Assembly: GCA_918797485.1 (NCBI GenBank)
Contig: CAKKNE010000001.1
Coordinates: 558,001 to 622,000, forward strand
DNA from: Pelagomonas calceolata
Taxonomy: Eukaryota
DNA length: 64,000 nucleotides
Reading direction: 5' to 3'
In this document: piece after piece, positions 5,141 through 63,393 of the stretch
Layout of the letters: every line of letters begins with the position of its first letter
Position numbering within the stretch: position 1 is the first letter of the stretch
The notes under the pieces: model-generated
The model's database searches: none
The model's input: the letters and a program-made list of their open reading frames with translations, nothing else
Told to the model about the DNA's origin: nothing
Translations under genes and position numbers: made by a program

Positions 5141-5162
5141 CTAGCGGCATGTAAGACACTAG
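5141..5162. promoter_or_regulatory. Paired-CTAG motif (CTAGCGGCATGTAAGACACTAG) in the TBCE/SNRNP40 divergent region; representative of about 13 instances
   Basis: Near-identical motif at 38501-38521 and related ones in other upstream regions. Confidence 0.55.
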
Positions 5163-5312
5163 AGCAAAGCGGCAAGCCGGCCTTTTGCCTCGCCGAGAGG
5201 CGGCAGCAGCTCAACGCGGCCGAATAGATCATCTAAAGCCTACCCACACGCCATCGCTGCGATCCATCGCAGCGCCGTCGCCCACCGTCCCTCTGCAGAC
5301 CTCAAACCAGGC

Positions 5313-6365
5313 ATGAGCATCGTCCAAGCCCAAAAGAAGCGCCGCGGCAACAATGAAGTGGCGGTAAGACTGCCGAGTTCGAGCATCGCGACGAGCGGCC
5401 CCGGGAGTGGGTTAAGAGCGCTACAAGAAGAGGACGACGAGGAGCCCCGCACAAGTAACTTGCAAGCCCCGATCATGTTACTGAGCGGCCAGGACGCTCC
5501 CGTCTACGGCGTCAAGTTCTCGCCGACCGGCGACGTCCTCGCGTCGGCGGGCGCCGAGAAGGCGATTTATCTGTGGGAGGTCTACGGGGATTGTGCAAAT
5601 TACAACGTCCTCCGAGGTCATCAAAATGCCATCCTAGACTTATCCTTCTTTCGGGACGGGCGAACTTTGGCGACGGCTTCTGCCGATAAGAGTGGCGCCT
5701 TGTGGGACGCCCATAAAGGTAAAAGGAAGCGGAAATTACCTTGTGCTTCGATAGCGAACGGCTGTTGCGCCGGGTCGATGGACGACCACGTCGCGGTAGC
5801 CTGCGACGATGGTTCGGTATTGTTGTGGGACGCTAGACAACGGAAGCCCGCCAAACAACTACAAACGCAGTACGCGCTATGTGCGGTCGCGTTGGAAGGT
5901 TCGGAGAATCGGGTCTTCGCCGGCGGCCTCGATAATGTGATTAGAGGATGGGACCTGCGGAGCGACGAGGTCGTGCTGGAGTTAAAAGGCCACGGGGACA
6001 CGGTCACGGGTCTAAGCCTGTCGCCGGACGGCTCTCGGTTGCTCTCGAACAGCATGGATAGTACATTAAAAGCGTGGGACGTCGCGCCCTTCAGCCCGTC
6101 CGAGCGGTGCGTCGCGACCTTCGAGGGCCACTCGCACGACTTCCACAAGAATTTATTGCGGTGTTCTTGGTCCCACGACGGCGAAAAGGTCGCCTGCGGC
6201 TCGGCGGACCAGATCGTCCACGTCTGGGACGTCGCCTCGACGGAGGAGTTGTACTACCTTCCGGGACACAAGGGAGCAGTGACCGAGGTCGACTTCCACC
6301 CGAAGGAGCCGATCCTCGCGTCGGCGTCGTCGGACACGACGGTATACCTGGGGGAGATCGCGTAA
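5313..6365 (+). CDS. SNRNP40: U5 snRNP 40 kDa WD40 protein
   Basis: PRTSNLQAPIMLLSG, LLSNSMD, HDFHKNLLRCSWS, YYLPGHKGAV.EVDFHPKEPI, YLGEI terminus. Confidence 0.95.
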   Translation: MSIVQAQKKRRGNNEVAVRLPSSSIATSGPGSGLRALQEEDDEEPRTSNLQAPIMLLSGQDAPVYGVKFSPTGDVLASAGAEKAIYLWEVYGDCANYNVLRGHQNAILDLSFFRDGRTLATASADKSGALWDAHKGKRKRKLPCASIANGCCAGSMDDHVAVACDDGSVLLWDARQRKPAKQLQTQYALCAVALEGSENRVFAGGLDNVIRGWDLRSDEVVLELKGHGDTVTGLSLSPDGSRLLSNSMDSTLKAWDVAPFSPSERCVATFEGHSHDFHKNLLRCSWSHDGEKVACGSADQIVHVWDVASTEELYYLPGHKGAVTEVDFHPKEPILASASSDTTVYLGEIA

Positions 6366-6450
6366 GTAGTCTTTGCCTTTAGAGCTAGCAGTCCACCTAG
6401 GCGCAGGCCTGCGTGACCAGCTGCGCGATCGTACGCCCGGCCCCCAGTAC

Positions 6451-6819
6451 TCATGCGCCGTCGCCCCGAGTGTTCGCTCGGAGGCGGTGGCCTCCACGGC
6501 ACGCCGTCGCCGAGACGACCAGCCGCGGCTTCTTGGGCGCCGGTCCCGGCGAGACGACGCCAGGCGGCGGCGTGATCGTCACCCGCCGCAGGCGCTCCTC
6601 CTTTTGTTGTTTCAGGACCGCGTCGTCGTCCGCTTGCGCGACAGCGCGGCGCAGCGCGAAGTCGTGGAAGATGGCCGGGAAGTCGCCGCCCAGCTGCTCG
6701 GCGCGGTCGGCGAGCGCCGAGCAGACGCTCTTCGGCGACGACGCGTCGGCTTCGAAGAGGCTGACGCCCTCGACGAAGTTCGTCGGCAGCGTCGGCAGCA
6801 GGGGCCGGTCGGAGGCCAT
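6451..6819 (-). CDS. Hypothetical small protein (3' end uncertain, possible frameshift)
   Basis: ATG ORF with coding-like GC3 pattern and basic PAPKKPR segment; no family recognised. Confidence 0.35.
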   Translation of the reverse strand: MASDRPLLPTLPTNFVEGVSLFEADASSPKSVCSALADRAEQLGGDFPAIFHDFALRRAVAQADDDAVLKQQKEERLRRVTITPPPGVVSPGPAPKKPRLVVSATACRGGHRLRANTRGDGA

Positions 6820-8812: not shown

Positions 8813-9231
8813 CGCTGCGCCGGCGTAACGCCACGATTATTGCTATCTGCGTACGCGTACAGCAGCTCGGAGCGCCGCGGTGCTGCAGCACCCATCACAA
8901 GTGCTGCCCTTCGGACCTCCCGCGCCGCGAGCGCCTCGAGGGCTCCCCAGGCGCTCCGAGCAGCCGTATTACGACACAAAAAGGGGCATCGGGCCGCTCG
9001 CTGGTGGGCAACCCACTAGCGGCAACTTTGCCCAGCGCCCTCGGTCGACCGCATTTGCCGGGCTGAGGACGCGAGGCTGAGGCTCCGGGCCTACAGAGCT
9101 CGACATAGTTGCTCCGGATCTCGCGGAAGCCAGGGAACCGCTGGCCGCAGCGCAGCCGCGCGCTCACGAACCCAGAGGGCGGGCAGCCTGGGCAGCCCTC
9201 CGCGCGCGCGTCCGCGGCGGGGTAGGAGACC

Positions 9232-9978: not shown

Positions 9979-10004
9979 GGTTTGACGGGTAACTTCTTTA
10001 CTCA

Positions 10005-13938: not shown

Positions 13939-13967
<29 letters not shown>
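13939..13967. repeat. (GA)n microsatellite
   Basis: About 14 consecutive GA units. Confidence 0.95.
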
Positions 13968-14567: not shown

Positions 14568-14857
14568 GGGTCCAACTGTCGCTACGCGGTGGTTTCGTGG
14601 TTTAAGAGAGTCGTCTTTTTAAAATCCTAGTATGTCAACCGGCTAGATAAATCGAGGGCGTCGTCGTCTTTGCGAGCCTATTGCGCAGATCTGGGCATCC
14701 CGCACGCCTGGACGGACACATTCGCGCATCACTGTCGCCGTTCGCCGCGCCAGCCGCCGCGAGAAGCCCGCTGCCGCGCAGACAAAGCTATCCCAAGCAG
14801 GGGTCGCCACTCGCCGCGCCAGCCGCCACGAGGACGCCCGCATCTCCGAGAGCAACC

Positions 14858-17876: not shown

Positions 17877-17938
17877 CGGCCTGCTTGCTAGTGTCTTACA
17901 GGCCGCTAGCGCGCGGCCTGCTTGCTAGTGTCTTACAG
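17877..17938. promoter_or_regulatory. Duplicated 25-bp unit containing CTAGTGTCTTAC in a divergent intergenic region
   Basis: CGGCCTGCTTGCTAGTGTCTTACAG occurs at 17877 and 17914. Confidence 0.55.
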
Positions 17939-18200
17939 CACGCTAGGTCCGCAAAGCTGCGCCTTTGCAGTTTTGGGGCCGTGCTGGGTTAGGATCCGGC
18001 GCAAGCCATTTTCGGCATTCGTTTTGGGCTCCTTTTGACCTGCGCAGTGTAAGCGACACGTATCGGCGTTCGTGGAGCAACACCTCCCAGCAGCGCCGTC
18101 GAAGCAGCGCGGCGCGCCGACGTCAAGAAATAAGGCAAGGCAGCGCGCAGCATCGAAATTAAAACACAGCGCAGCGCGCAGCACCAGTACCTAGAAAAAT

Positions 18201-32819: not shown

Positions 32820-33276
32820 CGCTTTTTTGCTGCGGTGAGTGCAGGCCAGCGGGCTGCCAGTGAGAGCAGTCTGCAGTGGTCCCCCAATGCTTCGATCCGC
32901 CCCCAGCGCTTCACACCACGTCAAATGCTATACGCACGTGTCGAATTATCAGCCCTAGGCTCGACTAGGCCGGTGCAGCGGACTCCGGCGCTTTGAGCCG
33001 CATACGCGCTAGCGTACATCGACACTAGGATCAACCCAGCTTTTCACAGGGCTTTGTAGGGCCTGCGTAGCGCGCCAGAGGACCGAGGACCGCACACAAA
33101 CTTCCTAGGCGTCGCCTACTACTGGCCAAACGCCCTGCGCCCGCCGCCGCGGCCCCTGCGACCGCCGCCCGAGAGCATCTCTGGCAGCACCCAGAGAGGA
33201 AATAATCGAAATAATCTCCGGCAGCACCTGAGAGGAGCAGAGGAGAGCCAGTTAAGCGGTCACACGGCACCTCATC

Positions 33277-37538: not shown

Positions 37539-37571
37539 AGACTACTTTGTACTTATAACACATCAAAAATT

Positions 37572-38303: not shown

Positions 38304-38527
38304 ATCGCTGCGGCGGCGTGCGTGGGACTGTGTCTAGGTGACCCTGATGACCAGATGTGTGATGCAGCGCAGAAAATCTTCTTAGAATCGTAGGGATGGT
38401 TTCGCTGGACAACCAGCTGTACAGGCGCGTCCTGCCGTATTCAAATCCTTAATCAGCTGTGCCGATTCACCGTTCGAGCCTCTCTCGACCCGGCATGGAG
38501 CTAGCGGTAGTAAGACACTAGCAAACA

Positions 38528-39124: not shown

Positions 39125-39383
39125 CGTAGCTGTGGCTGCGAGTGATCGGGCAGCCTTGATCGGCAATTATGGGCTTTTACGACGCTGCCCATGTGGTGCT
39201 AGTGTAGTAACATACTAGCTTTTAGCCGAGGCTGCTGTTGCTTGGGCGAGGCTCAGCGTACACGGGCGTTGTGAGCACACACAGACGTGTAACGGGCTGC
39301 TCAAATCGGTGCGATAGCGATTGCAGCGCTACATCGATTTGTGCCGACTCCAGGTGAGACTGCACACTGCACTGTGACTGCAG

Positions 39384-39998: not shown

Positions 39999-40017
39999 TG
40001 TGTCAAAATTAGCAAAA

Positions 40018-40944: not shown

Positions 40945-41250
40945 ATTTTGCTATGGATCACTGCGGCAGCGTCGGCGCGGCGCTATAGCGAGTGTGCGGC
41001 CGCGATAGCGTCAGATGTGATTTTTCAATTGAGAGGAGTTGTGGGCCGTCGGCTGCGCAAAAAGCGCCCGAACGTAGCCGAACGTTATCTAATACAGGTA
41101 CAACAGCGCTGGGCAGCAGCAGATGGTGGTGGTGGCTCACGATGGCTTGCGTTGGGTCCAGTCATCGAGGCTAGCGGTAACACACTAGCAATAGCGTACG
41201 AGACCAAGGATAGAAGGTCTTACCCGACGCGCCCTCACCCACAAACGCGC

Positions 41251-42087: not shown

Positions 42088-42369
42088 ATCGAAGAAGCCA
42101 AGCCCCTGCTGCGCAGAACGATGCCCATGACGCGACGCGTTATTGGCGAGAATCATGAGGGTACGCTCAAGATACGGTGGACTTACGCGGAGACGCTCTA
42201 CAAAGACCCGGACGCCACGCTCGACGATCTCCGTGAAGCCATGACGACGCTCGAGGAGACGGCACCGATCTCGCGGCGCGTGCTCGGCAGCGCGCACCCG
42301 GTCACGGAAGGGATAGAGGACGAATTGCGACACGCGCTAGCAGCCCTCCGCGCCCGCGAGAGCTCGTAG
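42088..42369 (+). pseudogene. 3' fragment of the RING-CH/TPR family (paralog of 2075-3241)
   Basis: EEAKPLLRRT...ATLDDLREAMTTLEE...RRVLGSAHP matches EEARSLLRRT...ATLDDLRESVTTLED...RRVLGGEHP. Confidence 0.8.
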
Positions 42370-42384
42370 GAATCTAAAGACAAA

Positions 42385-44349: not shown

Positions 44350-44707
44350 CGCTGCGCGTTGGCGATGGCCTGCTCGGCCGCCTTCAATTCGCGCGGAGGC
44401 TCGGAGCAAGGTCTCCTCAGTGCATAAGTCTGCACCAGACCAAAGTCTGCATGCAGCAGGCAGCTGCACTGTAGTCTGTCTATGACCAATAAAATCAATC
44501 AATGAGCTTTCGCAGCTGCACTATGAAGACTTTGTGGCACGTTCGCAGGCTGGGCTAGCGTTGACACACTAGGATTACACTAAGAGCGCTGAACTCTATA
44601 CGTAAAGACCCCCAGAAGCCATCGCTGCCGAGGTTTACGACACGTGGGGACCCCTTTATTAAGCGCCCGACGCAACCCCATCGTCGCCGCGTCGGCAGAG
44701 CTGTGAG

Positions 44708-46108: not shown

Positions 46109-46122
46109 CTGGAACAACAGAA

Positions 46123-46623
46123 TTAAAACCCAACCGTGACCGCAGCGACGGCCACGACGGCTCGATCCGCGGCGTCGCCTAACGCTTCCACGACGCGACC
46201 GGACTGGAAGTCCAGGCCGCCCGCACGCACCTCCACGGGGAGCATCCGACCGTACGGAAACATGGCGCGGATGTCTTCGACGGACACGGAGTCCACGAGG
46301 TCTTCCGGCACTCCGATCTCGACCTTTAGCAACATATCTCCGCGACCGCGCTCGTATCCGCGGTCGCGCAGGAGCGTCTCCATATACGGCAACGCGTTAA
46401 ACTCGATGGCCTGGCGGCATGCACGCGTGGCGGCCTTGCTCGCACCAGCCGTGCCATGCTGGTCGCAGCCCATCCCCGCTTGCACGAACACGATCTCGTT
46501 AAGGGTTGTCTCTGGAGGCGCCCATTGTGCGCCCAAGCCTGCGGCTTTCCATTCCTGCGATGTAGCACCCGTCGTGCTTGCGCGTCGTGAGCGCGCGACA
46601 AGCCGTGCAGCGCGATTCAGCAT
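46123..46623 (-). CDS. Lin0512-family protein
   Basis: VFVQAGMGCDQHG...KAATRACRQAIEFNALP...FPYG...GGL...AVAAVTVGF. Confidence 0.85.
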   Translation of the reverse strand: MLNRAARLVARSRRASTTGATSQEWKAAGLGAQWAPPETTLNEIVFVQAGMGCDQHGTAGASKAATRACRQAIEFNALPYMETLLRDRGYERGRGDMLLKVEIGVPEDLVDSVSVEDIRAMFPYGRMLPVEVRAGGLDFQSGRVVEALGDAADRAVVAVAAVTVGF

Positions 46624-46949
46624 GCTTTCAATCAGTGCACAGCCTGCCAGTGGCTTGCACACCCTGTAGCGATGCGCCGCAGCGATGAATTTTCGTACAG
46701 CGCGTATAATCGATGCAAAAGATACTCTTTGCTAGCTGGGCAGCGCTAGGGCTTGCTCTCGCGTCCGGAAAATCCGCAAACAGGGGGCTAGCGTACTATA
46801 AAGACACTAGTCTCCAGCTTTTTTACGCAGCAGCCTCCTAATCAGCCACTATAGCTGCCAAGAATTCGGCCTGAGATTGTATTTGCATCGCTGCGCTGCC
46901 ACTTTCGATCGCTGTCCATTTCTCGCATCGCTGTGACAAACTGCAGCCA

Positions 46950-50817: not shown

Positions 50818-51615
50818 CTAGAACGTCGGCGCCGGCGCCTCGGCGAAGTGGCCGCGCATGCGCTTCACGAAGGGCCGCGACGCCTTCAGGAAGCTTTCGA
50901 AGTCGCGGCGCAGGTGCTTGCCCCACCTGTGTCTATCGGCGCCCGCGTCGCCCAACGCGCGGTAGAAGACCTCCCTAGGAGGCAGGAAATCGAAGACCTT
51001 TCTCGCAATAGCTCTGACAACTCGATTGTGGTGGTGTGCATAGGTCTTGTCGTAGGCGTCCCTGCCCGCTTGTCTGATGGCCGCGTTCGCCTCCTTCTCT
51101 TTGTTTGGTGAGGGGTCCAATGTGATGGAGCTCTTCTTTATAACGCCTTCGAGGATGTGCTCGAAGAAGTCCAGGAACAGCAAGGACCAATACGCAGAAG
51201 CGGCGACGGGCCGGTGGCCTCGATACGCCAGGTCCTCCTCGTGGCTCACGAGGTCGTCGAGGTCGACGTGGCTCTGCCTCGAGGTCTCGAGCGTCACTTC
51301 TGCTGCTCTTCTGAGGTTAACACTATCCCTTTGTAGGGGCGTCGTGATGAAGGAGGCCAGTACGGTAATGACGGGCATGAGCGTGTCGAGCGTTTCTGCG
51401 ACCTCTATGACGCTCAGCGAGCTGTTGGACACGTAGATGGCCTGCTCCAAATGCTGCGTGCCCTTCCGGAGGATCGAGGCGCTCGGGTCCACGATGATGG
51501 TGGGGAGTTGCGGCGCGGACCAGAGCGTCGTCCACGGGGCGGTCGAGACGAGGCTGAAGGCGAGCATGAGCTGCAGCTTCGTGAGCGATGGTTCTTTCGG
51601 GCGGTGGCGGCCCAT
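50818..51615 (-). CDS. Glycolipid transfer protein (GLTP) family
   Basis: AYDKTYAHHHNRVVRAIARKVFDFLPPREVFYRAL. Confidence 0.8.
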   Translation of the reverse strand: MGRHRPKEPSLTKLQLMLAFSLVSTAPWTTLWSAPQLPTIIVDPSASILRKGTQHLEQAIYVSNSSLSVIEVAETLDTLMPVITVLASFITTPLQRDSVNLRRAAEVTLETSRQSHVDLDDLVSHEEDLAYRGHRPVAASAYWSLLFLDFFEHILEGVIKKSSITLDPSPNKEKEANAAIRQAGRDAYDKTYAHHHNRVVRAIARKVFDFLPPREVFYRALGDAGADRHRWGKHLRRDFESFLKASRPFVKRMRGHFAEAPAPTF

Positions 51616-51719
51616 GGTTCTTTTTGCGTTCTTCGTGGGCGGCGTGCCGTGCGGCGTTCTTTTGAGGGCGAGTGACTCCTCCGCGTGGTCCGCGAGGATG
51701 TGTTAGTCTCGCCGGGTCT

Positions 51720-51789
51720 TGACCGACTGCTACGAGGCGTCGGCGGCGTCCGGGGGGCTGACCGACTGCTACGAGGCGTCGGCGGCGTC
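51720..51789. repeat. Direct repeat of about 31 bp (TGACCGACTGCTACGAGGCGTCGGCGGCGTC x2)
   Basis: Two identical copies separated by 8 bp. Confidence 0.85.
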
Positions 51790-52234
51790 GGCGGGCCGCT
51801 GCGCTACGCGGTTGTGCGCCGGTGAACAAAAGAGCCTGCTCTGACGACTGGCGCACGAGGGCCGGCTTCGTGAAAAGTGGCGGCGCAGCTCAATTTATCA
51901 CGGCAGGGTGGCCTCGTTGGCGGGTGGAGGTGGCTGGGTGTGTAGCCTCGGCCAAGCCTCGCCCGCGCAATGCGCTGTTTTGGACAGGTGCCAGCGGCTG
52001 ATGATTTGACGAAACCCTCAATTGAAGCCTCCAGGGCTCCTGTGCTGCCCCCTCAGACTCCCCTTTGCAGCAGACGCGTCAAAATTTGAATTGAACCAGC
52101 TAGCGTACAGGGACTCTAGGAGCGAGACTTGACCTCAGCTTTAAGCAGGCTGAGCTCAGGTAAGCAAGCCTCTGCTGCCGTCAAAAGCGCGCAGAGTGCG
52201 GCGCAGCAGTGCTGTCACAGTGCTGCAGGCAAAA

Positions 52235-54877
52235 ATGGCCAAAAAGAATAAGAGCAAGCCGTCCAAAAACGGCACCAAAGCTGCTGCAAGAGATGCCACC
52301 GCACCAAAGCCGTCGCGGAGCAGCATCTACGTCGCAGCCGCCGTCGCAGCGATCGCAGCCGTCGCCGCAGTGTTTCTCAACCGCGACGCGGCCACGGCCC
52401 ACGCGCAGACGATCCTGAAATGCTACGCGAGCAACGACTGTGCCGTGCCACTGCCAAGTTGCGGCGTCGTCACCGCACCAGCGAGCATCGCACCAGCGCT
52501 GCGGGCCAACGACGCCGTCCTGGTCGCCGCCGTAAGAAGCTCCACGACGACGCTCGTGCGCGCCGCGGGCGAGACGCCGCTCGCGACGGGAACGAACGCG
52601 AGCGCGATCGACCGCGCCTTGCTGGCTCTGGACGTCGAGTGCGGCACGAAAATAGCTACGACGACGTCGCCGCGCCTCAAACAGGTGCTCGCGGTCTTCA
52701 AGGAGGTGTCGGGGACGCAGGCGCGCGAGCCGGTGGTCGAGGCTCGGATAGCGCAGCTCCGGAAGCTCCTCAAGGATTCTGATGTTGATGTCAGGGGCGC
52801 GCTCGGCGTGGGCGGCTTCTTCGCGTCGGCGGCTTCAATGGAGACGGCCGACACGCCTCTGCTGCGCGCCGCGCGGAACTGCGACCCGCGGGCCACGATG
52901 GCTCTGCTCCAGCTCGGCGCGAATCCGCGCTTACGAGATGCCCGCGACCTACGCGCATTAGATCTGGCGCTGAAGTGCCAGGACCGCAACGTGTTTGGGG
53001 TGGCCAAGGTGCTTATCGACCACTGCGGCAAACCTTGCATCGACTTTGAGGACGAGACGACGCCCCACGACGGTCTCAATCCGATACACCGCGTGTTACT
53101 CTTGTGGGCGTCGTCGTGGTTTCCCACGCGGCCGGTCCAGAACCCGTCTCGACGCGGCGTCAGTTTCGTGCCTTCATCGACGCGAGAACACATGAGAGCA
53201 CGCGTCGCGCACTCAAACGCAAGGGCAAGCAGGATTTCTACCCTCTACGCCATCGATCGAGCGGACGTCGCGTCGATGGCGTGGGGCCGACGCGTGACGC
53301 GTCGACGGCGTACCCGTTCGTTCGTGATCCACGCGATAACACACGCGTGTGCTGGTGCTCGTGCGCCGTCGCTGGACGAGAGCACGCCACTTAAACGCAA
53401 GGAAAACGACGCGATGCCTCACAGGTGGAACATGATGCTCGCCTGGATGCTCGAGGCCGGCGCCGACGCGACGCAGCCGACGCGCACTCCCTCCAAAGAG
53501 GCGCCCCTGCACATCGCCTGCGCCAAACGAAATGTCAGAGCCTTAGAACTGCTGCTGGATTCATTGGAACGATCCCAGACCTTGCAAGGAGCTTTGACAC
53601 AAAAAGACGCCCTCGGCGGCTTCGCCCCCTTACATGTGTGTGGAGGCTCGTGGAAGATCTGGTCCGTCACGCTCCCGCGATTACTGGCGGGCGCCGGCGA
53701 GCTGAACACGCAGGCCTTGGATTTGGATGAGGCTTGCATTCCCCTCGTGCGGTCCTTGGCGACGAGCGACGGGCAGCCGGCGCTCGCGACCGCCGATGTT
53801 TTAGCGCAGTGCGGATTTTATGGGAGAGCCGTGGCGTTACTTGTCCAGAACGGTGCTCCCGTCGATGCGCGGGATTCTCAAAATAGAACCTTCCTCCACT
53901 TTTTGCACCCGCATTTGGTACGGGACGCGGCGTCGGCACTACCATCTATTGACGTGCCGTACAAGGACGTCATTAGTGGAGCCGTTTCAAAGCATCCGGA
54001 CGCTTTACAACTTCTAGCGGAGTCGCGCTTAGAAAGAGAACGGTGGCACGCACCTAAACAAGAACCCGCGCCGCACACCTCTTTCGACGCTTCTGATCAG
54101 AACTGTGATGAAGTAGTGGCCGTCGCGCATACGGATGATGAGGTACTGGATGCGATCCGCAACCACAGACCGGTGATACGCAGAGACGCGTTGGATGCAT
54201 CATGGAATAAAGCGAGAGAGGACTGGGGCGACCGCGCGCGCTTAGAAGCGTTAGGTGGCGGCGCTTTGGTGAGGAGCGGCCCCATCCCCTACGCGTCGGC
54301 CTTCGCAACCACCGAACGCGTGCTGACACTGCGGGAGGCCATGGCGCGGTCCGCCGACGAGTCGGCAAATGCGGAAACGCAGCGCAGAAAAAAGAAAGAC
54401 GTCGAAGCTCCGTCCTACGTCTTCGAGCAGATCCGGTGGGACGGTGTGAGTACGGACCATCCGCTGTTCGACGTCATCAAGGCGCGCGTCGGGGATTCCC
54501 CTGTCAGTGATATGATTATCCACGACGCGCAGTTCTTCGTCGGCTCGCGCTACAGCGGCGCCCCGGCGCACTACCATAGTCATGCCATGAATTTCCTAGT
54601 AAAAGGCAAGAAGCGGTGGCTGCTCTGGCCGCCGGCGTCGGCGTTATATTCTAGAGTGCCCGCCGTGTCGTGGTTGGACAGGAAGGATGCGAGAGCCTAC
54701 CAGTGCGTGCAGCCGGAGAACGCGTCGCTCTACGTCCCCGCGGGCTGGGGCCACGCCGTGCTCAACCTCGAGGACCACACGGTCGGCGTCGCTTTGGAAT
54801 TTCACGTGGAGGGGGAATTGGCCTGGTCCTTCGAATCTCGAGCGACGGATTTGGTGAGTGCGAGTAGGCGACTGTAA
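52235..54877 (+). CDS. Membrane-anchored ankyrin-repeat plus JmjC (cupin_8) dioxygenase; probable in-frame intron at about 53104-53424
   Basis: DTPLLRAA and EAPLHIAC ankyrins; QFFVGSRYSGAPAHYH, KGKKRWLLWPP, YVPAGWGHAVLNL. Confidence 0.87.
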   Translation: MAKKNKSKPSKNGTKAAARDATAPKPSRSSIYVAAAVAAIAAVAAVFLNRDAATAHAQTILKCYASNDCAVPLPSCGVVTAPASIAPALRANDAVLVAAVRSSTTTLVRAAGETPLATGTNASAIDRALLALDVECGTKIATTTSPRLKQVLAVFKEVSGTQAREPVVEARIAQLRKLLKDSDVDVRGALGVGGFFASAASMETADTPLLRAARNCDPRATMALLQLGANPRLRDARDLRALDLALKCQDRNVFGVAKVLIDHCGKPCIDFEDETTPHDGLNPIHRVLLLWASSWFPTRPVQNPSRRGVSFVPSSTREHMRARVAHSNARASRISTLYAIDRADVASMAWGRRVTRRRRTRSFVIHAITHACAGARAPSLDESTPLKRKENDAMPHRWNMMLAWMLEAGADATQPTRTPSKEAPLHIACAKRNVRALELLLDSLERSQTLQGALTQKDALGGFAPLHVCGGSWKIWSVTLPRLLAGAGELNTQALDLDEACIPLVRSLATSDGQPALATADVLAQCGFYGRAVALLVQNGAPVDARDSQNRTFLHFLHPHLVRDAASALPSIDVPYKDVISGAVSKHPDALQLLAESRLERERWHAPKQEPAPHTSFDASDQNCDEVVAVAHTDDEVLDAIRNHRPVIRRDALDASWNKAREDWGDRARLEALGGGALVRSGPIPYASAFATTERVLTLREAMARSADESANAETQRRKKKDVEAPSYVFEQIRWDGVSTDHPLFDVIKARVGDSPVSDMIIHDAQFFVGSRYSGAPAHYHSHAMNFLVKGKKRWLLWPPASALYSRVPAVSWLDRKDARAYQCVQPENASLYVPAGWGHAVLNLEDHTVGVALEFHVEGELAWSFESRATDLVSASRRL

Positions 54878-54903
54878 GTGTTTAGGCAATGGGTAGGGGA
54901 TTT

Positions 54904-55344
54904 CTAGACGTTCGTGCAGACGAAGACGTCGAACTTGTTGTCGATACTGATGAAGCCGTCGGGCTTCTCGGGCTCCACGGGCTCGGGGGCGGCCGGCGGC
55001 GGCGTCTGGGGGGTGAGGCAGTTGAGGCCCTCCGCGATGAGCGCGAAGGGCGCCGTCGCCGCGATGACGCAGTCGCGCTGGATGAACTCCACGAGCGGCG
55101 GCGCCTCGCGCATCGCGCGGAGCCGGTCTTCCGTCGCCTCCAACAAACTCTCGCAGCCCGTCGCCGCGGCGTCGAGGTGGGTGGAGACGCGGGCGCACGC
55201 GTCTTGGAGTAGAGGCGCGAGCGTCGGGCCGCAGAGGCCCTCGCAGATGCGGCGGCGCGCCGCGGCCTCTTCGGCTTGGAGCTTCTCGAGCTCGGCGTCG
55301 GGGAGCGGCTGCGTCGTGGCGAAGCAGAACTCGTCCCAGAGCAT
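54904..55344 (-). CDS. Hypothetical protein
   Basis: ATG ORF with coding-like codon bias; no family recognised. Confidence 0.55.
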   Translation of the reverse strand: MLWDEFCFATTQPLPDAELEKLQAEEAAARRRICEGLCGPTLAPLLQDACARVSTHLDAAATGCESLLEATEDRLRAMREAPPLVEFIQRDCVIAATAPFALIAEGLNCLTPQTPPPAAPEPVEPEKPDGFISIDNKFDVFVCTNV

Positions 55345-55992
55345 CCTGCGTGGCTTGCGTGGTATGATGCGGTGAAGGCGGCGGGGCAGCTTGCAATGGG
55401 CGGCTCTGACCACCAGAAAGTAGGCGATGCTGCGTCGCGCTACGAGGCGCGACGTCGTCCGGGGCAGCGCGGAAGCAGCCGTGGTAGCACGCGCGTCTTT
55501 GCGCGCCGTTGGGCAGCGCCGCTCGCGTGTTTCGCCTTCGGGTCAAGCTCGCAGCCAGCCACTCAAGTTTCGGCTCGGGTCGTGCCCGGAGATCACCTTC
55601 CCATGATACGAGAACTCTGGAGGTCGCGCTATGAGTGCTGATATACCGGCTCGCAAGGACGGCTCTCGAAACGTTTGCTAGTGTCTTGCAGCTAGCCCAT
55701 GCCTGCTTTTGCACGCTGCTTTTTGGCCAAAGCTCTGCAGGAGACGCATTCTGCACACTCAGGAATCGCGCACGCATCGCATCGATCGCTGCCGGCCGTC
55801 GCGCGCTGCCTGACGCGCTGCAAAGCCACAGCTCTCTGCCAGAGGCTGCAGCAGGCTGCCTCGTGCAGCGCACACGTCGCGTTTGCAAACTACTGCGCCA
55901 GCGCGATGCGCCTACTGCCGAAGCCGCAAAACACAAGTAGCTGGATGCGCTCGGCCCTCGCACGCACCTCATTAATAGGCCTCGCGCGGAGC

Positions 55993-57078
55993 ATGGCCAC
56001 AGCTCCAAAAAGGCGCGTGGCTGCGATGGAAGTCAACTTGGCCATGAATCTGGACGACGCGAAGTTGTATGGCCTCGAGGGCGGCTTCCGCCACGCCGGC
56101 AGCAGCTGCGGGCGCCACGTCGAGAAGCTTTACGTCGAGGGCCGATTGCAGGGCTCGCTGGAACGCGCGGCGACGGCCCTCTTTGACGGGACCGTCAAGC
56201 ACGCGCTCGTCGTGAGCGGCTTCTACGTGCTCCACGATCAATTGGAGGGCGCGACGGGCTCGTGCGAGACCGACGGTCCGCCGGGAGCTCTAGCGGTCGT
56301 GCGGGCCCTCTGCGCGCGCGGCGTGCAAACGTCCTTATACTGCGACGCGCACAACGGGCCCGTCCTGAAAGCGGGCTTCGACGCCATGATAGCGTACTAT
56401 GCAACCACGAGGCCCGCCGTCGCGGATCGATTAAGGAGCCACTGCCGCTGCGTCGACGTCCCCGACGGTGTCGATCATTTAGAGGCGCTCAAAGGCGCCC
56501 TGGAAAAGGCCTGGGAGGCAGCTGGCGAGGTCGACGCGCTCGTCGCCGTCGAGCGCCTGTCCGAGCCCTACCGCAACATCAGAGGACACGACCTCGCGGC
56601 GCACACGGAGCCCGTCGACGTGCTGTGGCCCCACGTCGACGGGTCGTCCTGTGGAGAGGCGCGGCGGAAAGCGGGCATTCGGGAGGACGCCGTCTCCGTC
56701 GGGATTGGGGATGGTGGCAACGAAGTCGGACTGGGGCGGGTCGCCCAGCTCGACGCCGTCGCTTCCTTATCGCCTGGCGAGGACTTCTGCGCGCTGGGCG
56801 TGAACGGCGCGCTGCGGGCCTGCGACCACCCGCTCGTCGCGACGGTGTCGAACTGGGGCGGGTCCGCGCTGGAAGCCGCGGCGCACGCGCTCTTCCCGAC
56901 CGCGTTGGACGATCTCGAGGCGGGCGTCGAGCGCGCGGTCCTCGAGGCCATCTGCGCGGCCGGCTCCGTCGACGGCAAGTACGTCGAGCGGCCGCTGTCG
57001 GTGGACGGCATGGCCTGGGAGCCGGTCCACCGGGAGTTCTACGAGATGCTGTGGGGGCTTGCTAAGGGTGAGTCATGA
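55993..57078 (+). CDS. D-glutamate cyclase-like protein (DUF4392)
   Basis: VVSGF, ETDGPPGA, LVAVER, VGIGDGGNEVGLG, VATVSNWGG, SVDG. Confidence 0.88.
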   Translation: MATAPKRRVAAMEVNLAMNLDDAKLYGLEGGFRHAGSSCGRHVEKLYVEGRLQGSLERAATALFDGTVKHALVVSGFYVLHDQLEGATGSCETDGPPGALAVVRALCARGVQTSLYCDAHNGPVLKAGFDAMIAYYATTRPAVADRLRSHCRCVDVPDGVDHLEALKGALEKAWEAAGEVDALVAVERLSEPYRNIRGHDLAAHTEPVDVLWPHVDGSSCGEARRKAGIREDAVSVGIGDGGNEVGLGRVAQLDAVASLSPGEDFCALGVNGALRACDHPLVATVSNWGGSALEAAAHALFPTALDDLEAGVERAVLEAICAAGSVDGKYVERPLSVDGMAWEPVHREFYEMLWGLAKGES

Positions 57079-57141
57079 CTTAAAGGTTCTAGCGGAATGA
57101 AGCGTCTCAAAGAAATATCTGGTGTGCATGCCGTCGGCTGC

Positions 57142-57807
57142 TCACTTCTTCTTGCCCGCCTTCGCATCCGGTGCGGTGAGAAGAATCGCCGCGACCATGA
57201 GCGCGGCCAAAAACACGAAGTCCCCCAGCATTTCGGGAGACGCCAGTCCGTGCGCGACGAATGTGGCCCATAGGTTCTGAATGCTCATGAGCGAGGCCAC
57301 TGCCCTGAGCACTGCCTTCTTGGTCGCGACGCTGGTCTGCAGCAGGGAAGCCCAGGCGCAGAGCAGCACCAGCGTCAGCGCAAGGTTCTTTCTCATTTCG
57401 ATCAAGAACACGTGTTCATCGAAGACAGGCAGGGAAGCAGCCCATGTTTGACAGGCAGGGGCGTGCTCCATAACGCCGGGAATAAAGCAGGGGAGCCGGA
57501 TCGGGAGGAAGAGACCTCCCGCCACCAGAAGGGAGATGTCGAGGGCGCGTGGCGGCTCCTCATCCTCGTCCTCCACGGGCTGCTCCTCGTCCTCGCGTTC
57601 GTGCTCCGGCACGCGTGTGTAGCGCCCGCTAAGCTCTTCGTACCGCAGGAAGCCGCGCCCGCGCAGCCGCCCGAGAAATCTCCCGATGTCTCGTTTTGAG
57701 TACTGAAGGAACTCTTCGGCGAGGTCATCAAGGCTGTAGCTGCTCTCCGTGTCGAAGTGGTCGTAAATCTGCTGCTGGCCCGGTGGCAATTGGTTGGCCA
57801 CGGGCAT
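57142..57807 (-). CDS. Hypothetical membrane protein with N-terminal winged-helix-like segment
   Basis: YSLDDLAEEF...IGRFLGRLRGRGFL; several C-terminal hydrophobic segments; ends KKK. Confidence 0.6.
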   Translation of the reverse strand: MPVANQLPPGQQQIYDHFDTESSYSLDDLAEEFLQYSKRDIGRFLGRLRGRGFLRYEELSGRYTRVPEHEREDEEQPVEDEDEEPPRALDISLLVAGGLFLPIRLPCFIPGVMEHAPACQTWAASLPVFDEHVFLIEMRKNLALTLVLLCAWASLLQTSVATKKAVLRAVASLMSIQNLWATFVAHGLASPEMLGDFVFLAALMVAAILLTAPDAKAGKKK

Positions 57808-58294
57808 GGTGCGCGTGTTTGGCTGCCCCGGGTGGGATGTTGCGGCTGCGAGTGCAGTGCTGGCACCTGCTGTGTTGCTGCGTGCGATTGCACGTCGGCA
57901 GAAGCAGTGAACTAGTGTACATACATACTAGCTTTCCCGAGGCAAAACCCGTCGGTTAAATTGAGGCTAGGCTAGGAGGCAGAGCCCTACGCTGTGCAGG
58001 CTGAGACGCTGTTTTGCAAAGCCTGTCACTGGCAGGCTGTGCACTGATTGCATAGCGCAGAGGTCGGCGCGCGCGGCGTCGCAAGGACACCAGCAGTAGC
58101 GCACAGCGTCCCAACCACAACAAAACAAAACGCGCCTCCTTCATCAGCATGTTCCACGACTCTACCGTTCGACGGCGCATGGGGTTTTGGCGCGAAGAGC
58201 CGCGCTGCAAAACGCAGCGCACGGCCGCGCGGTCGATCGCCTCTGATTAAAGACGGGGGCCGAGCGCCGCGACGGTCGGACAACACAGGTCGCC

Positions 58295-60838
58295 ATGGGC
58301 ATCAACAACTTCCACAAGTGGGTCGACGCGACGTTTGGGTGCACGCAGAAGGCGTCAAGGGTCGACTGCGAGGACCTGTTGGTGGATATGAATTCGCTCG
58401 TCCACGGCGCCGCCCGCAAAGCGAACACGCCGGCGCAAGCCCACAAGCTCATCCTCAAGCGACTCGAAGGGCTGCTCGACGAGCGGCGGCCGGGCCCCAC
58501 GGTGCGCGCGTCGCAAACGCTCGCTCTCTTCTCCGACGGACCCGCTCCTCTGGCCAAGCTCACGACGCAACGGGCGCGGCGGCTCCGCGGCCGGTCCGCA
58601 GCGCGAGCAGACGGCTACGACGAAGACGTCGTGGACGAGGCCAAGTTCACGACGCTGATGATCAGCCCCGGCACGGCGTTTTCGAGGGCGCTCGCCGAGC
58701 GCCTCGACGCCTGGGCGGCGAAGCGCCTCGCGAAGGGCCGCGGCTTCCGGAGGGTCGTCCTCAGCGACGCGTCCGTCGCCGGCGAGGGCGAATTGAAGGC
58801 CTTCGAGTACGCGGACACGTACGGAGACCGCGACGTCGTCGTGTACGGTGGTGATGCCGACTTAGTGGCCATGGCGCTTTCGCGGTGCCCTGTGTGGAAA
58901 TCAACCAGTGCGTCGGGTGCACCCGAGAATTCTTCACTAAGTCATTTCTCGGCGATGACGCGGCCGTCCTGGCTCGGTCGAGCGGAGAAGAGCCGGCATC
59001 GCCACGCCATCGAGCAGGCATCGCGTCGACGGCGTGGAGGACGACGCGATGATTCAGCACGAACGCGCCGTAAGATTTTGATTTCCACACAGGCGGTGCC
59101 AGCGACGAGGACGCTTGCGCATCCTGGACGAGAACGGGCGGCTCATAGACGTGAAGACTCTAGCGAAGCGCGTCGCGCCGGCGCACCCCTTAGACCTGGC
59201 CGTCTTGGCCATCGCCGGCGGCGGCAACGACTACCTGCCCGGGCTGCAACATTCCGCACCACACCTCTGGAGTGCGTTGAAAAAGAGTAAGGCGGGGCCG
59301 CTCTGGCGCGACGGCGCGCTGGACCGCGCGGCCTTCGCGGCTGTCCTAAAGGCGTTTGGCGAGTCGCGCGAAGGGAAGGGCGAGAGCGGCGATCTGCGGG
59401 AAGCGGCGCTCGGGCGGCGGCGCGCCGACGGCGCGCCGGCAGCTCCGCGGACCGTCATCACCACGTTAGAGCCAAGGCGGGCGGACCTCTGTAACGTCCG
59501 CGTGTTGCCGCCGCGGGACTTCGGTGACGTGGCGCGCGGCGCGGAGACTCTCACGTACCGCGTCCGCTGGCGGCGCGCCAACGGCGGGGCGTGGTGCGCG
59601 GCGCAAGCTTACGAGACCGGCGCGCCGCTCGACGCCGTTCCGCTCGAGACAATCAAACACGGCGTGCCCATCCGCGTGCCCGCCGGCGGCGGCGAGGTCG
59701 AGGTCTGCGCCTGTGTGGAAATCAACCAGTGCGTCGGGTGCACCCGACAATTCTTCACTAAGTCATTTCTCGGCGATGACGCGGCCGCTGAACGCGCCGT
59801 AAAATTTTGATTTCCACACAGGTCTGCGCGAGCGCGAAGAACAGTAAAGGTTGGGGCGCATCGCGTACTCAGAAGCAGCGGCGCGCGAAAAGCTTCTGTA
59901 TGGCGCTGGGCCCCGACGAACACGATGCGCACACGGCCGCGGAAATGAAGCGCCAGCCGGCCGCGGCCGAAACGCCGGCGAACGACGACGCTCCGGCGCC
60001 CGCGATCCCGGCTCCCATGAAGCGCGCCTGGGACGCGGCAGCTTGGTTGGACCAGCTCGAGTGGACCCTGGCCATGTACGTGCGCGGCCGTTGCGTGGAC
60101 TGGCGCCTGCTCTACGCGTACCCCGGCAGGCCGTCCGTCGGGGACCTCGTGCGGGCCTGCGGCGCGCCCGCCCCGAAGTGCGTACCGCGGCCGCCGATCT
60201 CGCCCGTCGCTGCGCTAGCTTGTTTGATTCCAGGGCGGTCCGCTGCGGCCTTATTACCGACGAAGGCGCGATTGCTCCTCGACGACGGCTCGCCCATCGC
60301 CAGTCTTTGGTGGGGGGCGAACGACGCCATCGACGTCGACGCTATTGAAGCCGCCGTCGACGAAGCGGTGCCTCCGGCTTGGGGTACGCCCGTGATCGTC
60401 GACGCCAAGGGCCGCACCGCTGTTAGGCTTCTTGCCGACGGCGCCGCAGCGTATCCGCCTCTGCCCCGAGCGCGTGGCGGCGGCGGCCGGGCGCCGCCGC
60501 CGCGCGGACGGGCACCACCGCCGCGCGGCCACCCTGTTCCGCCGCCGCGCGGTCCGCACGCCGCCGCGCCGTCGTATTCTGCGCCGCCCGTTCTCCATGC
60601 CATCGTTCCGCCACCGCCCGCTCACTTTACCGTCGTTCCACCGCCCGCCCCCTCGCTCGCAAAACGCCCGCCGCCTCGACATGGCCCTCCGCCGCCGCCG
60701 CCTCAACCCAAGCGCGGACGAGGCGGCAAGGGCCGCGGTCGAGGCCGTGGACGCGGCGACGCCGCGGCGGCGTATCGGCCGACGAGTAGCGGCGGCGGGG
60801 CGCGCGTGCCGCGGTCTCGCGGACGCGGCCGTTCGTAG
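58295..60838 (+). CDS. XRN-family 5'-3' exoribonuclease-like protein; interrupted by two introners
   Basis: MGINNFHKW, LVDMNSLVH, DGPAPLAKL..QRARR, ISPGT.F, GEGELK, YGGDADL, GNDYLP, WTLAMY...DW..LY; exons join in frame after introner removal. Confidence 0.9.
58890..59092 (+). mobile_element. Introner element copy C (203 bp); TSD GCGGTGCC; predicted intron 58882 (GC) or 58885 (GT) to 59092
   Basis: Same TIRs; TSD at 58882-58889 and 59093-59100. Confidence 0.95.
59711..59821 (+). mobile_element. Introner element copy D (111 bp, internally deleted); TSD GTCTGCGC; predicted intron 59703-59821
   Basis: Same TIRs; TSD at 59703-59710 and 59822-59829. Confidence 0.95.
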
Positions 60839-61119
60839 TTTGTTTGCTGTTCGTAACGTTTGTGAACGCGACCTGTCCATCTCGTGTTCCCCGCGCGCGG
60901 GAAAATCCCGCGAGCGCGATAGGAACCAATCCCACCGCGTCTGAGTCGCTAGCGAGCCGTGCTTCAGCTTTGGTAGACGTTCGATCTCGTCCGGAATTTC
61001 CGGCATAGCGCATTTCCCAGAGTGGGGGGGTCCTCGATGTGCAGACCCAGCATTCAGCATTCGCATTGCAAACCGGGAGCTCCACACAACCGCACAAGTC
61101 TGTTCAGCCGCCGCTACCA

Positions 61120-61392
61120 ATGGCCCCAACTCTAAAAATACGTACCCGCCTTGGCCCTGAGAGCTTCGGCCGCGCGAGTCGCGCGCCAAAAATACCTGTC
61201 TGCCTGGCCTCACTGCAGTACAAGGACTGGTACAAGGAAGATTGCACGGCGTGCACCGGCCCGTGCCGCACAGACGAAGCGCTCACGACGGACGAGGTGT
61301 ACAACGTCGACGATGGCGAGCCCTGGTCCGACGTCGCCGACGTCGCGCTCGTCCGTGGCACATACGACGGAGAGACGTTCGTCGCGGCCTAG
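61120..61392 (+). CDS. Small hypothetical protein (CxxC motif); 5' structure uncertain
   Basis: 3' half (YKDWYKEDCTACTGPC...) looks coding; start and possible intron unresolved. Confidence 0.35.
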   Translation: MAPTLKIRTRLGPESFGRASRAPKIPVCLASLQYKDWYKEDCTACTGPCRTDEALTTDEVYNVDDGEPWSDVADVALVRGTYDGETFVAA

Positions 61393-61449
61393 CTGCTCAA
61401 ACCTTCACAAGAAATCGCTCCCCCCCCGTCGCATAAGTACCTGGTACGA

Positions 61450-62889
61450 TTAGTTCACATTACCCAGCGCCGCCACCAGCCTCTCGAACGACGGCCGCGC
61501 CGCCGCGTCGCCCTGGAGGCAGTCGTCGGCGACGGCCAAGAGCCGGTCCCGCGTCGCCGCCGCGCCGACGATTCGCGTCGCGACCTCCGCGCACAAGACC
61601 CCGAACGCGCGGACCTCGACGCGCTCGATCAGCCTTTGCGCCGACGGCGCGAGCTCGCCGTAGTAGAACGACGCGCCAAAGTCCCCGAGCTTCGCCGCGC
61701 CCGTCGAATCCAATACGAGCGTGTTGTGGCCGTAGACGTCGCCGTGCGCCACGCGCTTCGAATGCAGGTACCGCAGCGCCTCGGCCAAACCCTTTAGGAG
61801 CGTAATGGAGAAGGCGCTCGAGAAGCGCTCGCCGTCCTCGTAGCGGTCCCGCGTCACTTCTATTATGGTAGGGGGCCTCGCGAGGTCCCTCGCATTCTTC
61901 GTCAGGCGCTCCATGACGACGGCCGGCGGTTCTCGTATGATGGCCAGCGTCTTGATTAATGTGGAAGGCGTCTCCCCAGCAACGCGCTCGTGCACCGCGA
62001 GCTCGTCCCGCGCGGCGCCGTCCGACGACGTCTCGAGCAGCTCCTTGACGGCGCAGGGCGTGCCTTTGAAGGACGCGGACCGCACACTGCCGGAAGCGCC
62101 CTTGCCGAGGGCGACGGCGTCGCTGAAATCGATCCGGGCCATCGTCGTCTCGAGCGCGCTAGCCAGTTGGCCGAAGCCGACGAGCCGCGGGTTCCCGGCC
62201 AGCGCGACCCAAGCTAATCTAGGCGCCCTCAGCACTTCGTCCGGCAGGGACTGCAGGTCGTTGTTCGCGAGGCGCACTAATTCTAGGGATGCTAGGTTTT
62301 TTGAGGGGTTAGTGCCGCCAGTAAACGAAGTGAGCTTGTTGTTCGCCAACATGAGCTTTCTTATAGAAGAGAACTTGCGCCACGCTTCCTCATCGATTGT
62401 CGTAATTTGGTTGTCCGTGAAGATGGCGTGGATTAAGTGCGGGGGTAACGCGTCTCCATGTAACTTGGTGAGGCCGTTGCTCTTGAGTCCCAGGCGCGTC
62501 AGCGACGTCATTCGCGCGAGGACCTTCGGGACACTCTGCATGCGTCTGCTCCCCAGCACGAAGAGGATTTCGAGCCGCGTGCACTTTGCTAACGTCATCG
62601 GTAGGTCCGTGAGGTCGTTGCCTCCTAAATCAAGTTTCTTGAGCGATGCGCACTGGCCGATGGCCGCCGGCAGCTCCGTCAGGCCGCAGTTCCTCAACGA
62701 AAGCTCGACCAAAGAAGGGAGGCGCGGCGCCCAGCGGGGGTTTGTGAGGACGTCGCATGGTATTTCTTCATTATCCTTGGCCTCGTCTTGTCGTGAGAAC
62801 GCGTATAGGACGGCGAACGCTACCAAAGCTCCAGCGAGGGCGACGCGTCGTTGCGAGAGTAGTACGAGCCACGGCTGCGGCTTTGGCAT
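61450..62889 (-). CDS. LRR-containing protein kinase (bacterial/fungal LRR-kinase type) with N-terminal TM
   Basis: LRRs; LGKGASG, AVK, SDG..RDEL, VAHGDVYGHNTL, LGDFGAS, ERVEVRAFG. Confidence 0.9.
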   Translation of the reverse strand: MPKPQPWLVLLSQRRVALAGALVAFAVLYAFSRQDEAKDNEEIPCDVLTNPRWAPRLPSLVELSLRNCGLTELPAAIGQCASLKKLDLGGNDLTDLPMTLAKCTRLEILFVLGSRRMQSVPKVLARMTSLTRLGLKSNGLTKLHGDALPPHLIHAIFTDNQITTIDEEAWRKFSSIRKLMLANNKLTSFTGGTNPSKNLASLELVRLANNDLQSLPDEVLRAPRLAWVALAGNPRLVGFGQLASALETTMARIDFSDAVALGKGASGSVRSASFKGTPCAVKELLETSSDGAARDELAVHERVAGETPSTLIKTLAIIREPPAVVMERLTKNARDLARPPTIIEVTRDRYEDGERFSSAFSITLLKGLAEALRYLHSKRVAHGDVYGHNTLVLDSTGAAKLGDFGASFYYGELAPSAQRLIERVEVRAFGVLCAEVATRIVGAAATRDRLLAVADDCLQGDAAARPSFERLVAALGNVN

Positions 62890-63393
62890 CTTTTTTTTTG
62901 GCAGGCCTTGCTCGGCGGCTGCTAGCTTGTTGCTGCTGCTATTGTTACGGCGCATGCAAGGCTGCAGCTGTCGTGCAGCGCAAGCCCCGTTGCCTTTTCC
63001 TTGTGCGCAAACTGTGTCGTCGGCCACGCAAACTCCACCCGACGACTGTGCGTCAAGGACGGCGCGGCGAATGGTCGTGTGCTCGGGGCGGTTGCTGAGT
63101 AGCAACGCTTGCACACCTGCGCTTGAGCTGTGCAACAATGCGTGCCTGCTCAGCTCTTTTGTGTCGACGCCACGACTAACTAGCGTCGTGTAGACACTAG
63201 CATTTTTTTTGCACAGCCCCGATGAATCGGCGACGCGCGGTGTCTCCCCCCCAGGGACTACGCCCACTAGTCCTAGCACCGTAACATCGTCAAACCGCCA
63301 GGGGTCTGCTGCCCCTTCACGCCATCGAGGCAACGTGGTTCGTAGACGACCCAGTTCATCCAAAAACGAATTGATTACCCCCGCAAAAAACAC

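What the first reader, a model, noticed from the sequence alone, without database searches (positions are those of the whole stretch)
5141..63200. Recurrent paired-CTAG element upstream of genes: candidate core or bidirectional promoter motif
Two CTAG tetramers whose starts are 14-19 bp apart, with consensus about CTAGCG-N-(AAG)ACACTAG, occur in intergenic DNA at 5141-5162, 14627-14646, 17888-17909 (half-site duplicated at 17925), 33009-33028, 38501-38521, 39199-39218, 41171-41188, 44555-44572, 46788-46810, 52100-52119, 55678-55695, 57912-57931 and 63180-63200. Ten are between divergently transcribed genes and three are upstream of a single gene. I did not notice it in coding sequence. Inference: a binding site for a general transcription or nucleosome-excluding factor; I know of no description of it.
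Basis: partly seen in the sequence, partly recalled or inferred. Interest (0 to 1): 0.7.

Follow-up and report, generated by a model that had tools for sequence, protein, structure and literature searches.

The report
Paired-CTAG promoter element of Pelagomonas-like alga
A short two-part DNA word sits at about half of the gene starts in this marine alga, right where messenger RNAs begin, is kept in close relatives but missing from a sister lineage, and is likely the landing site of an unidentified protein that opens promoters in both directions.

Summary
Real. All 13 listed sites exist; 17925-17946 is a whole second copy, giving 14. Consensus GCTAGCG(G/T)-N-AAGACA(TA)CTAG: two inward-facing half-sites, CTAG starts 14-19 bp apart. 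There are 16 such CTAG pairs against about 2 by chance. They lie in 10 of 14 divergent, 3 of 12 tandem and 0 of 15 convergent gaps, none in genes. Stranded RNA switches strand at the element, and four 5'-end piles lie 10-32 nt from it although the 5' UTRs span 61-217 nt; one start is at least 48 nt away. Four close relatives keep the half-sites with a changing spacer (13/16 core versus 38/140 flank columns invariant). A syntenic sister pelagophyte has none in 21 kb, and its three orthologous promoters carry AAAACCCG instead. Hairpin and transposon-footprint tests were negative. Best reading: binding site of a general promoter-opening factor in a Pelagomonas-like alga, working like the vertebrate CGCG element or yeast Reb1/Abf1 sites; no protein or chromatin data. 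Ten literature searches found no description.

The parts
5141..5162 (+). Element between divergent TBCE-like (CAP-Gly/LRR) and SNRNP40-like (WD40) genes
   Evidence: kept in L008, L011, L016, L018; absent at the orthologous place in L010 and L012
14627..14646 (-). Element (GACATACTAG variant), divergent gap
   Evidence: left gene model has no Pfam match
17888..17909 (-). Element, first copy of a 37-bp tandem duplication, divergent gap
17925..17946 (-). Element, second complete copy; spacer differs, half-sites kept
33009..33028 (+). Element, divergent gap (mTERF gene / EF-hand gene)
38501..38521 (+). Element, tandem gap; RNA 5'-end pile of the left gene at 38471; read pile on the 3' side of the upstream gene at 38519
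   Evidence: one run each
39199..39218 (.). Element (near-symmetric variant), divergent gap; left RNA 5'-end pile at 39185, plus-strand RNA to the right
41171..41188 (+). Element, tandem gap; RNA 5' ends of the left gene stop at 41161 in 3 of 3 RNA runs
44555..44572 (+). Element, divergent gap; RNA strand switch in the bin that holds it
46732..46749 (.). Extra CTAG pair with non-consensus inside, left of the 46756 RNA 5'-end pile; status unclear
   Evidence: (below 12 bits)
46788..46810 (+). Element, divergent gap; left RNA 5'-end pile at 46756
   Evidence: one run
52100..52119 (+). Element (GACTCTAG variant), divergent gap; left RNA extends about 340-440 nt past its ATG toward the element but stops at least 48 nt short
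55678..55695 (-). Element, divergent gap; plus-strand RNA starts at about 55729 (bin estimate); left gene barely expressed
57912..57931 (.). Element (near-symmetric variant), divergent gap; both strands begin in the 251-nt bin that holds it; XRN gene has a 5'-UTR intron 58096-58288
63180..63200 (+). Element, tandem gap upstream of an LRR-kinase gene

Best explanation
The element is a pair of inward-facing GCTAG(C/T)G half-sites that lies next to transcription starts and is likely bound by a sequence-specific general regulatory protein, which would keep a small stretch free of nucleosomes and would let RNA polymerase II start within some 10-70 bp on either side. Shown: the sequence, its place in promoter gaps, its closeness to RNA 5' ends, divergent RNA around it, and conservation of the half-sites in close relatives. 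Inferred: a protein binds it as a dimer or as two copies with a flexible link (spacing varies over half a helical turn), it excludes nucleosomes, and it is needed for transcription.
For: Discrete family with inner consensus. 13 of 13 sites intergenic, 13 of 26 promoter-containing gaps, 0 of 15 convergent gaps. RNA 5'-end piles 30, 14, 10 and 32 nt from four elements (SD 10) while the UTRs are 168, 61, 217 and 133 nt (SD 57); at 41161 the stop is seen in 3 of 3 RNA runs. RNA strand switches in or beside the bin of the element at 39199, 44555, 46788, 52100 and 57912. Orthologous promoter in 4 of 4 close relatives that include it: both CTAGs invariant, spacing 17-19, core 13/16 versus flank 38/140 invariant columns, p=4e-5. 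Eight further distinct copies in pelagophyte-like fragments outside the window all lie 124-370 nt upstream of a likely start codon; two of them were not the search target. Flanking genes are of unrelated functions, as for a general factor. Published analogue: the CGCG element lies 20-70 nt upstream of starts on either strand and drives bidirectional transcription (PMC6192621, passages).
Against: No protein, footprint, chromatin or reporter data. RNA ends come from poly(A) RNA-seq of one sample (all raw runs are one sample), not cap mapping; three of the four piles rest on 5-8 molecules in one run; one search was too shallow for piles at elements (its one minus-strand 5' pile, 57683, lies inside a gene). 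At 52100 the left start is 48-146 nt away. No control promoter without the element was mapped. Half of the promoter gaps lack it. The convergent-gap test is weak by length (P=0.08). No whole genome was available, so genome-wide frequency is an extrapolation from 64 kb. Variable spacing is unusual for a rigid dimer.
Confidence: 0.68

Rival explanations
1. It is a basal core-promoter element: either it occupies the TATA/BRE position and is read by the basal machinery, or each palindromic CTAG is an initiator and the pair is two back-to-back start sites.
For: Relative to the RNA piles the element covers -10 to -27 (41161) and -14 to -33 (39185); RNA-seq ends usually fall short of the cap (recalled), which could move true starts to the element's edge. 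Oomycete promoters lack TATA boxes and use their own core motifs (PMC3599244, abstract).
Against: Distances vary from 10 to at least 48 nt, too loose for a fixed-position element; absent from the sister lineage L010 (0 of 10 promoter gaps), whereas basal elements are expected to be conserved.
Confidence: 0.15
2. The copies are neutral relics of a transposon (a tiny insert between duplicated CTAG target sites, or fused terminal repeats) that prefers open promoters.
For: Lineage-restricted; inverted-repeat shape; TGT...ACA inside the CTAGs resembles integrase-type ends (recalled); the genome holds active introner transposons.
Against: No decayed copies between 14 and 19 bits; no target duplication outside the element, 0 of 21 perfect at 3-9 bp, one of 21 at 4 bp with the inner boundary; half-sites conserved while spacer and flanks change; no single empty CTAG at the orthologous place in L010; introner ends read CTGTGTGG, not the element.
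Confidence: 0.05
3. The site is bound by a protein, but for another chromosome job (insulator between divergent genes, roadblock terminator, replication origin or methylation mark), and sits at promoters because they are open.
For: Enriched in divergent over tandem gaps (10/14 versus 3/12, p=0.047); a read pile at the 3' side of the upstream gene falls at 38519 inside an element. A giant virus of the related alga Aureococcus methylates CTAG in its own genome (PMC12700378, passages), a lead only.
Against: Tight link to RNA 5' ends; one site per 4.6 kb would be dense for origins; tandem copies lie upstream of the next gene, never in convergent gaps where termination happens.
Confidence: 0.09
4. 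It works as a DNA cruciform or RNA hairpin.
For: The two halves are nearly complementary.
Against: 8 of 14 copies folded as DNA: z from -1.7 to +1.3, none clearly beyond shuffles; the C/A mismatch is the consensus and outer bases do not co-vary; RNA coverage stops short of the element at 41171.
Confidence: 0.03

Closest known systems
Vertebrate CGCG element TCTCGCGAGA (PMC6192621, passages read; its factor BANP is recalled, from no call)
   Same: Symmetric promoter word, no fixed distance but within tens of bases of starts on both strands, in divergent and housekeeping promoters.
   Different: Different sequence; contiguous 10-bp palindrome rather than two half-sites with a variable spacer; conserved across vertebrates; activity shown by reporters there, untested here.
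Yeast general regulatory factor sites Reb1, Abf1, Cbf1 (PMC2897762, passages read)
   Same: Frequent promoter sites at genes of unrelated function; repertoire changes between lineages (Cbf1 to Reb1 'mediated replacement'), which parallels CTAG-pair versus AAAACCCG here.
   Different: Different sequences; nucleosome depletion measured there, not here; Abf1's bipartite site has a fixed spacer (recalled).
Drosophila DRE/DREF and human ZBED1 (PMC7471704, passages read)
   Same: Palindromic promoter element read by a self-associating factor; the factor has transposase-derived BED and hATC domains, a precedent for a lineage-born promoter factor.
   Different: TATCGATA, 8 bp contiguous; no factor identified here and no transposase link shown.
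Oomycete core elements INR, FPR, DPEP (PMC3599244, abstract only)
   Same: Stramenopile, TATA-less, lineage-specific promoter motifs.
   Different: Lie on or downstream of the start at set positions and are directional; the present element lies upstream and serves either side.

Membership tests
General regulatory factor site (Reb1/Abf1/CGCG kind) | Enriched in promoters of functionally unrelated genes, absent from coding DNA | tested here: met
   13 of 26 promoter gaps, 0 genic, 0 of 15 convergent
General regulatory factor site (Reb1/Abf1/CGCG kind) | Close to transcription starts at a loose distance, on either strand | tested here: met
   10-32 nt at four sites, 48-146 nt at one, strand switch at five; RNA-seq ends of one sample, not CAGE
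General regulatory factor site (Reb1/Abf1/CGCG kind) | Conserved above flanking DNA in relatives | tested here: met
   13/16 versus 38/140 invariant columns at one orthologous promoter in five sequences
General regulatory factor site (Reb1/Abf1/CGCG kind) | Nucleosome-depleted and footprinted in vivo | not testable with these tools
   no chromatin data; A/T tracts beside the element gave a mixed picture
General regulatory factor site (Reb1/Abf1/CGCG kind) | Bound by an identified factor; mutation lowers transcription | not testable with these tools
   no genome or protein in hand
The named motifs CGCG, DRE, Cbf1 site | Sequence match to TCTCGCGAGA, TATCGATA or CACGTG | tested here: not met
   consensus compared by eye with the motifs printed
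Fixed-position core promoter element (TATA/BRE/Inr kind) | Fixed distance to the start site | tested here: inconclusive
   10, 14, 30, 32 and at least 48 nt; RNA-seq ends are imprecise
Fixed-position core promoter element (TATA/BRE/Inr kind) | Fixed orientation to the gene | tested here: inconclusive
   CTAGCG end faces the downstream gene in 5 of 6 tandem cases (3 window, 2 in L095/L099; L088 likely opposite); both sides transcribed at divergent sites
Transposon relic / MITE | Target-site duplication flanking each copy | tested here: not met
   0 of 21 perfect outside the CTAGs; CTAG itself as a fixed duplication cannot be excluded
Transposon relic / MITE | Spectrum of decayed copies, neutral divergence, empty orthologous sites | tested here: not met
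   score gap; selective conservation; no empty site in L010
Structured RNA or DNA hairpin | Stable fold with covariation; Rfam match | tested here: not met
   0 Rfam matches in window and L010

The most novel reading that the evidence does not exclude
A wholesale swap of promoter code between sister pelagophyte lineages: one uses a flexible two-half-site CTAG element at about half its promoters, the other uses AAAACCCG at the orthologous promoters, and the CTAG element is read by a lineage-born factor, possibly a domesticated transposase, that sets both divergent start sites from 20 bp of DNA.
Probability: 0.25. Interest if true: 0.75.

Novelty: new member of a known kind. Interest (0 to 1): 0.55.

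Why it matters
If it holds genome-wide (13 sites in 64 kb), it would be the main promoter signal of one of the most abundant open-ocean picoalgae, and none of my ten searches found a promoter motif described for pelagophytes. It gives a 20-bp bait to pull down the factor, a marker for start sites and missed genes in annotation, and a minimal bidirectional promoter for building genetic tools in this group. Its absence from a syntenic sister lineage, with another word at the same promoters, makes turnover of general promoter factors testable outside yeasts.

Tried and rejected
No whole genome is held and the longer metagenome records could not be searched, so no genome-wide count. Viral contigs: 7 matches to a strict pattern, all in phage-like DNA of 38-50% GC inside long ORFs or gene runs; 108 to a looser one, 81 of 108 inside long open frames, 3 of 108 at 56% GC or more, none similar to the window: background. 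Prokaryote genomes: 14 matches, 8 in prokaryotic DNA (6 inside ORFs) taken as chance, 6 in eukaryote-like fragments. Of the 80 SNRNP40 loci, four matrix hits of 15 bits or more fell in distant eukaryotes (L020, L059 twice, L081), none with two CTAGs. Hairpin, target duplication and introner-end identity, Rfam, tRNA and a bacterial promoter scan were negative. Orientation rule: 5 of 6, not significant. A/T tract asymmetry: T-runs right of the element 9 of 21 versus A-runs 1 of 21, but left 6 versus 7: unresolved. Organism B DNA is nearly identical and showed nothing inside elements. Earlier findings of this scan: four look-ups, nothing. The L102 row was one base out of register and was dropped. 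A paper on linker methylation in small algae could not be opened and is not used. An RFX-like reading of the CTAGCAA extension was dropped: the core differs (recalled motif). Supplements were not opened for any paper; those of the Pelagomonas genome preprint are closed and could mention motifs.
Full report
Organism and gene map. The window is 62.7% GC, gene-dense and eukaryotic. Its proteins lie on a contig of several megabases. In a tree of 19 SNRNP40 proteins the window falls in a clade with Aureococcus, Aureoumbra, Chrysophaeum and Pelagophyceae CCMP2097 (100/99), sister to the lineage of locus L010 (100/99). It carries about 200-bp introner-like repeats. GC content and introners match the description of Pelagomonas calceolata (10.1101/2021.10.25.465678, passages), so the organism is most likely that species or a close relative; this is inference, as no close hit was named. 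No whole genome is held.

Observation. All listed sites are present. The copy at 17925-17946 is complete, part of a 37-bp tandem duplication. There are 16 CTAG pairs at start spacing 14-19 against null means near 2 and maxima of 7-9 under three null models. The inside is not random: ACA precedes the second CTAG in 12 of 14 copies and in 1 of 89 other CTAGs. A matrix trained on the copies separates them (19-30 bits) from everything else (13.8 at most). Over 22 rows including out-of-window copies, one of them misregistered, the consensus is GCTAGCG(G/T)-N-(GT)AAGACACTAG(C/G)A, with a GACATACTAG variant; spacings are 14 (3), 16 (7), 17 (3), 18 (8), 19 (1). Read inward, both halves are GCTAG(C/T)G.

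Position. On a 42-gene map the 13 sites fall in 10 of 14 divergent, 3 of 12 tandem and 0 of 15 convergent gaps, none in genes. The convergent contrast is p=5e-5 by gap count but only P=0.08 by gap length. Searching prokaryote genomes gave 14 matches, 6 in eukaryote-like fragments joined into marine MAG contigs; I judge them pelagophyte-like from GC and gene families, not from named hits. With two copies found there by the matrix and one by a second pattern, and counting the L095/L099 duplicate once, there are 8 distinct outside copies; all lie 124-370 nt upstream of a likely start codon on at least one side. Six were selected by sequence pattern, none by position.

RNA. Stranded poly(A) reads of one sample were laid on two stretches holding 8 of the 13 sites. 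On 37500-47400 (three RNA runs) 5'-end piles of minus-strand genes lie at 38471, 39185, 41140/41151/41161 and 46756, that is 30, 14, 10 and 32 nt from the nearest consensus element, with UTRs of 168, 61, 217 and 133 nt. The 41161 stop recurs in 3 of 3 runs; the other three rest on 5-8 molecules in one run; three rows of the table were not shown. Plus-strand RNA appears right of 39199, 44555 and 46788; beside the tandem sites 38501 and 41171 opposite-strand depth is under 1. On 51300-58800 (four runs) depth was low and no pile formed at an element. By bin depth the strand switches at 52100 and 57912, and plus RNA begins near 55729, about 34 nt right of the 55678 element. Against a fixed distance: left of 52100 no read reaches 52053 in 4 of 4 runs, so that start is 48-146 nt away. 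No promoter without the element was mapped as a control.

Conservation. Of 80 SNRNP40 loci (best 80 of 250), four close relatives include the promoter (L008, L011, L016, L018; 90-98% protein identity apart from an intron read-through in L011). All four keep the element with spacings 19, 17, 18, 18. Invariant columns: core 13/16, spacer 2/6, flanks 38/140, p=4e-5; this is one promoter. The syntenic sister locus L010 (63-90% identity over ten orthologous genes) has no hit in 21,047 bases, 0 of 10 promoter gaps against 13 of 26 (p=0.006), including three promoters whose window orthologues carry it. The Aureococcus-type locus L012 also lacks it, but 8.6 kb is weak evidence (P=0.17). Gain on the window's branch is the simplest reading, yet that branch is short (0.025) and L010's long (0.13) in the tree, so loss in L010 is open.

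A second word. AAAACCCG ranked first among 8-mers separately in window promoters lacking the element and in L010 promoters. L010 has 8 copies, 7 in promoter gaps (null mean 0.22, 0 of 1000), among them all three orthologues of element-bearing promoters; the window has 5, all intergenic, 4 in gaps without and 1 in a gap with the element. The word was chosen from these same data and 4/13 versus 1/13 is not a significant exclusion, so replacement of one site by the other is a lead. It parallels the Cbf1-to-Reb1 shift in yeasts (PMC2897762, passages).

Rivals tested. Hairpin: z between -1.7 and +1.3 for 8 of 14 copies, no covariation. Transposon relic: no flanking duplication in 21 copies, no decayed series, different introner ends. 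Orientation: the CTAGCG end faces the downstream gene in 5 of 6 tandem cases, unresolved. Viral matches are background.

Mechanism. The pattern fits a protein that reads two half-sites with a flexible link and defines a small promoter from which polymerase starts on either side (0.68). Binding, nucleosome exclusion and necessity are inferred. A basal element or initiator pair is the main rival (0.15). It works like the CGCG element and yeast general regulatory sites, with DRE/DREF as precedent for a transposase-derived factor, but it matches none of them in sequence.

Novelty. Ten searches (listings only unless stated) found no description; only 3 papers (2 listed) hold Pelagomonas, motif, upstream and promoter together, neither listed title on this topic, and the genome preprint has no occurrence of 'motif' or 'promoter' in its main text. 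The library lacks most subscription papers and I saw no supplements. Verdict: real, likely functional, a new member of a known kind; interest 0.55.

Noticed in passing
window 7258, 11403, 21042, 27810, 57944; L010 4475, 7752, 9688, 9791, 13123, 13716, 18231, 19321: Second promoter word AAAACCCG, all five window copies intergenic and 7 of 8 in L010; present in the L010 orthologues of CTAG-element promoters.
   Followed up: partly
window 45320-45523, 58890-59093, 59711-59822: Introner-like elements with terminal inverted repeats starting CTGTGTGGAAATC and an 8-bp target duplication; heavily represented in poly(A) reads from other copies.
   Followed up: partly
L011, L016, L017, L018 (SNRNP40 and TBCE genes): Close relatives carry introns in these genes at places where the window has none: intron presence/absence polymorphism.
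   Followed up: no
L088, L089, L093, L095, L096, L099, L102: Marine bacterial and archaeal MAG contigs contain eukaryote-like gene fragments joined to prokaryotic DNA: probable chimeric contigs.
   Followed up: partly
window 38519 and 38535: Read piles at the 3' side of gene 38528-39124 fall at the edge of element 38501-38521, a hint that a bound factor could also stop upstream transcripts.
   Followed up: no
window 30696-32819 and 42385-44349: Two ORFs join an mTERF repeat domain to an unrelated part (Asp/Asn hydroxylase in the first); may be fusions or adjacent genes read through.
   Followed up: no
window 55699: The longest ORF of the glutamate-cyclase-like gene starts 4 nt after the element; RNA appears to begin near 55729, so a later ATG is likely the real start.
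   Followed up: partly
L010 about 3990-4150: A stretch that begins like U1 snRNA (recalled) lies in an intergenic gap; Rfam at gathering score did not report it.
   Followed up: partly
L010 and L012 versus window 439-20725: Gene order is kept over six genes out to an Aureococcus-type genome and over about ten genes in L010.
   Followed up: partly
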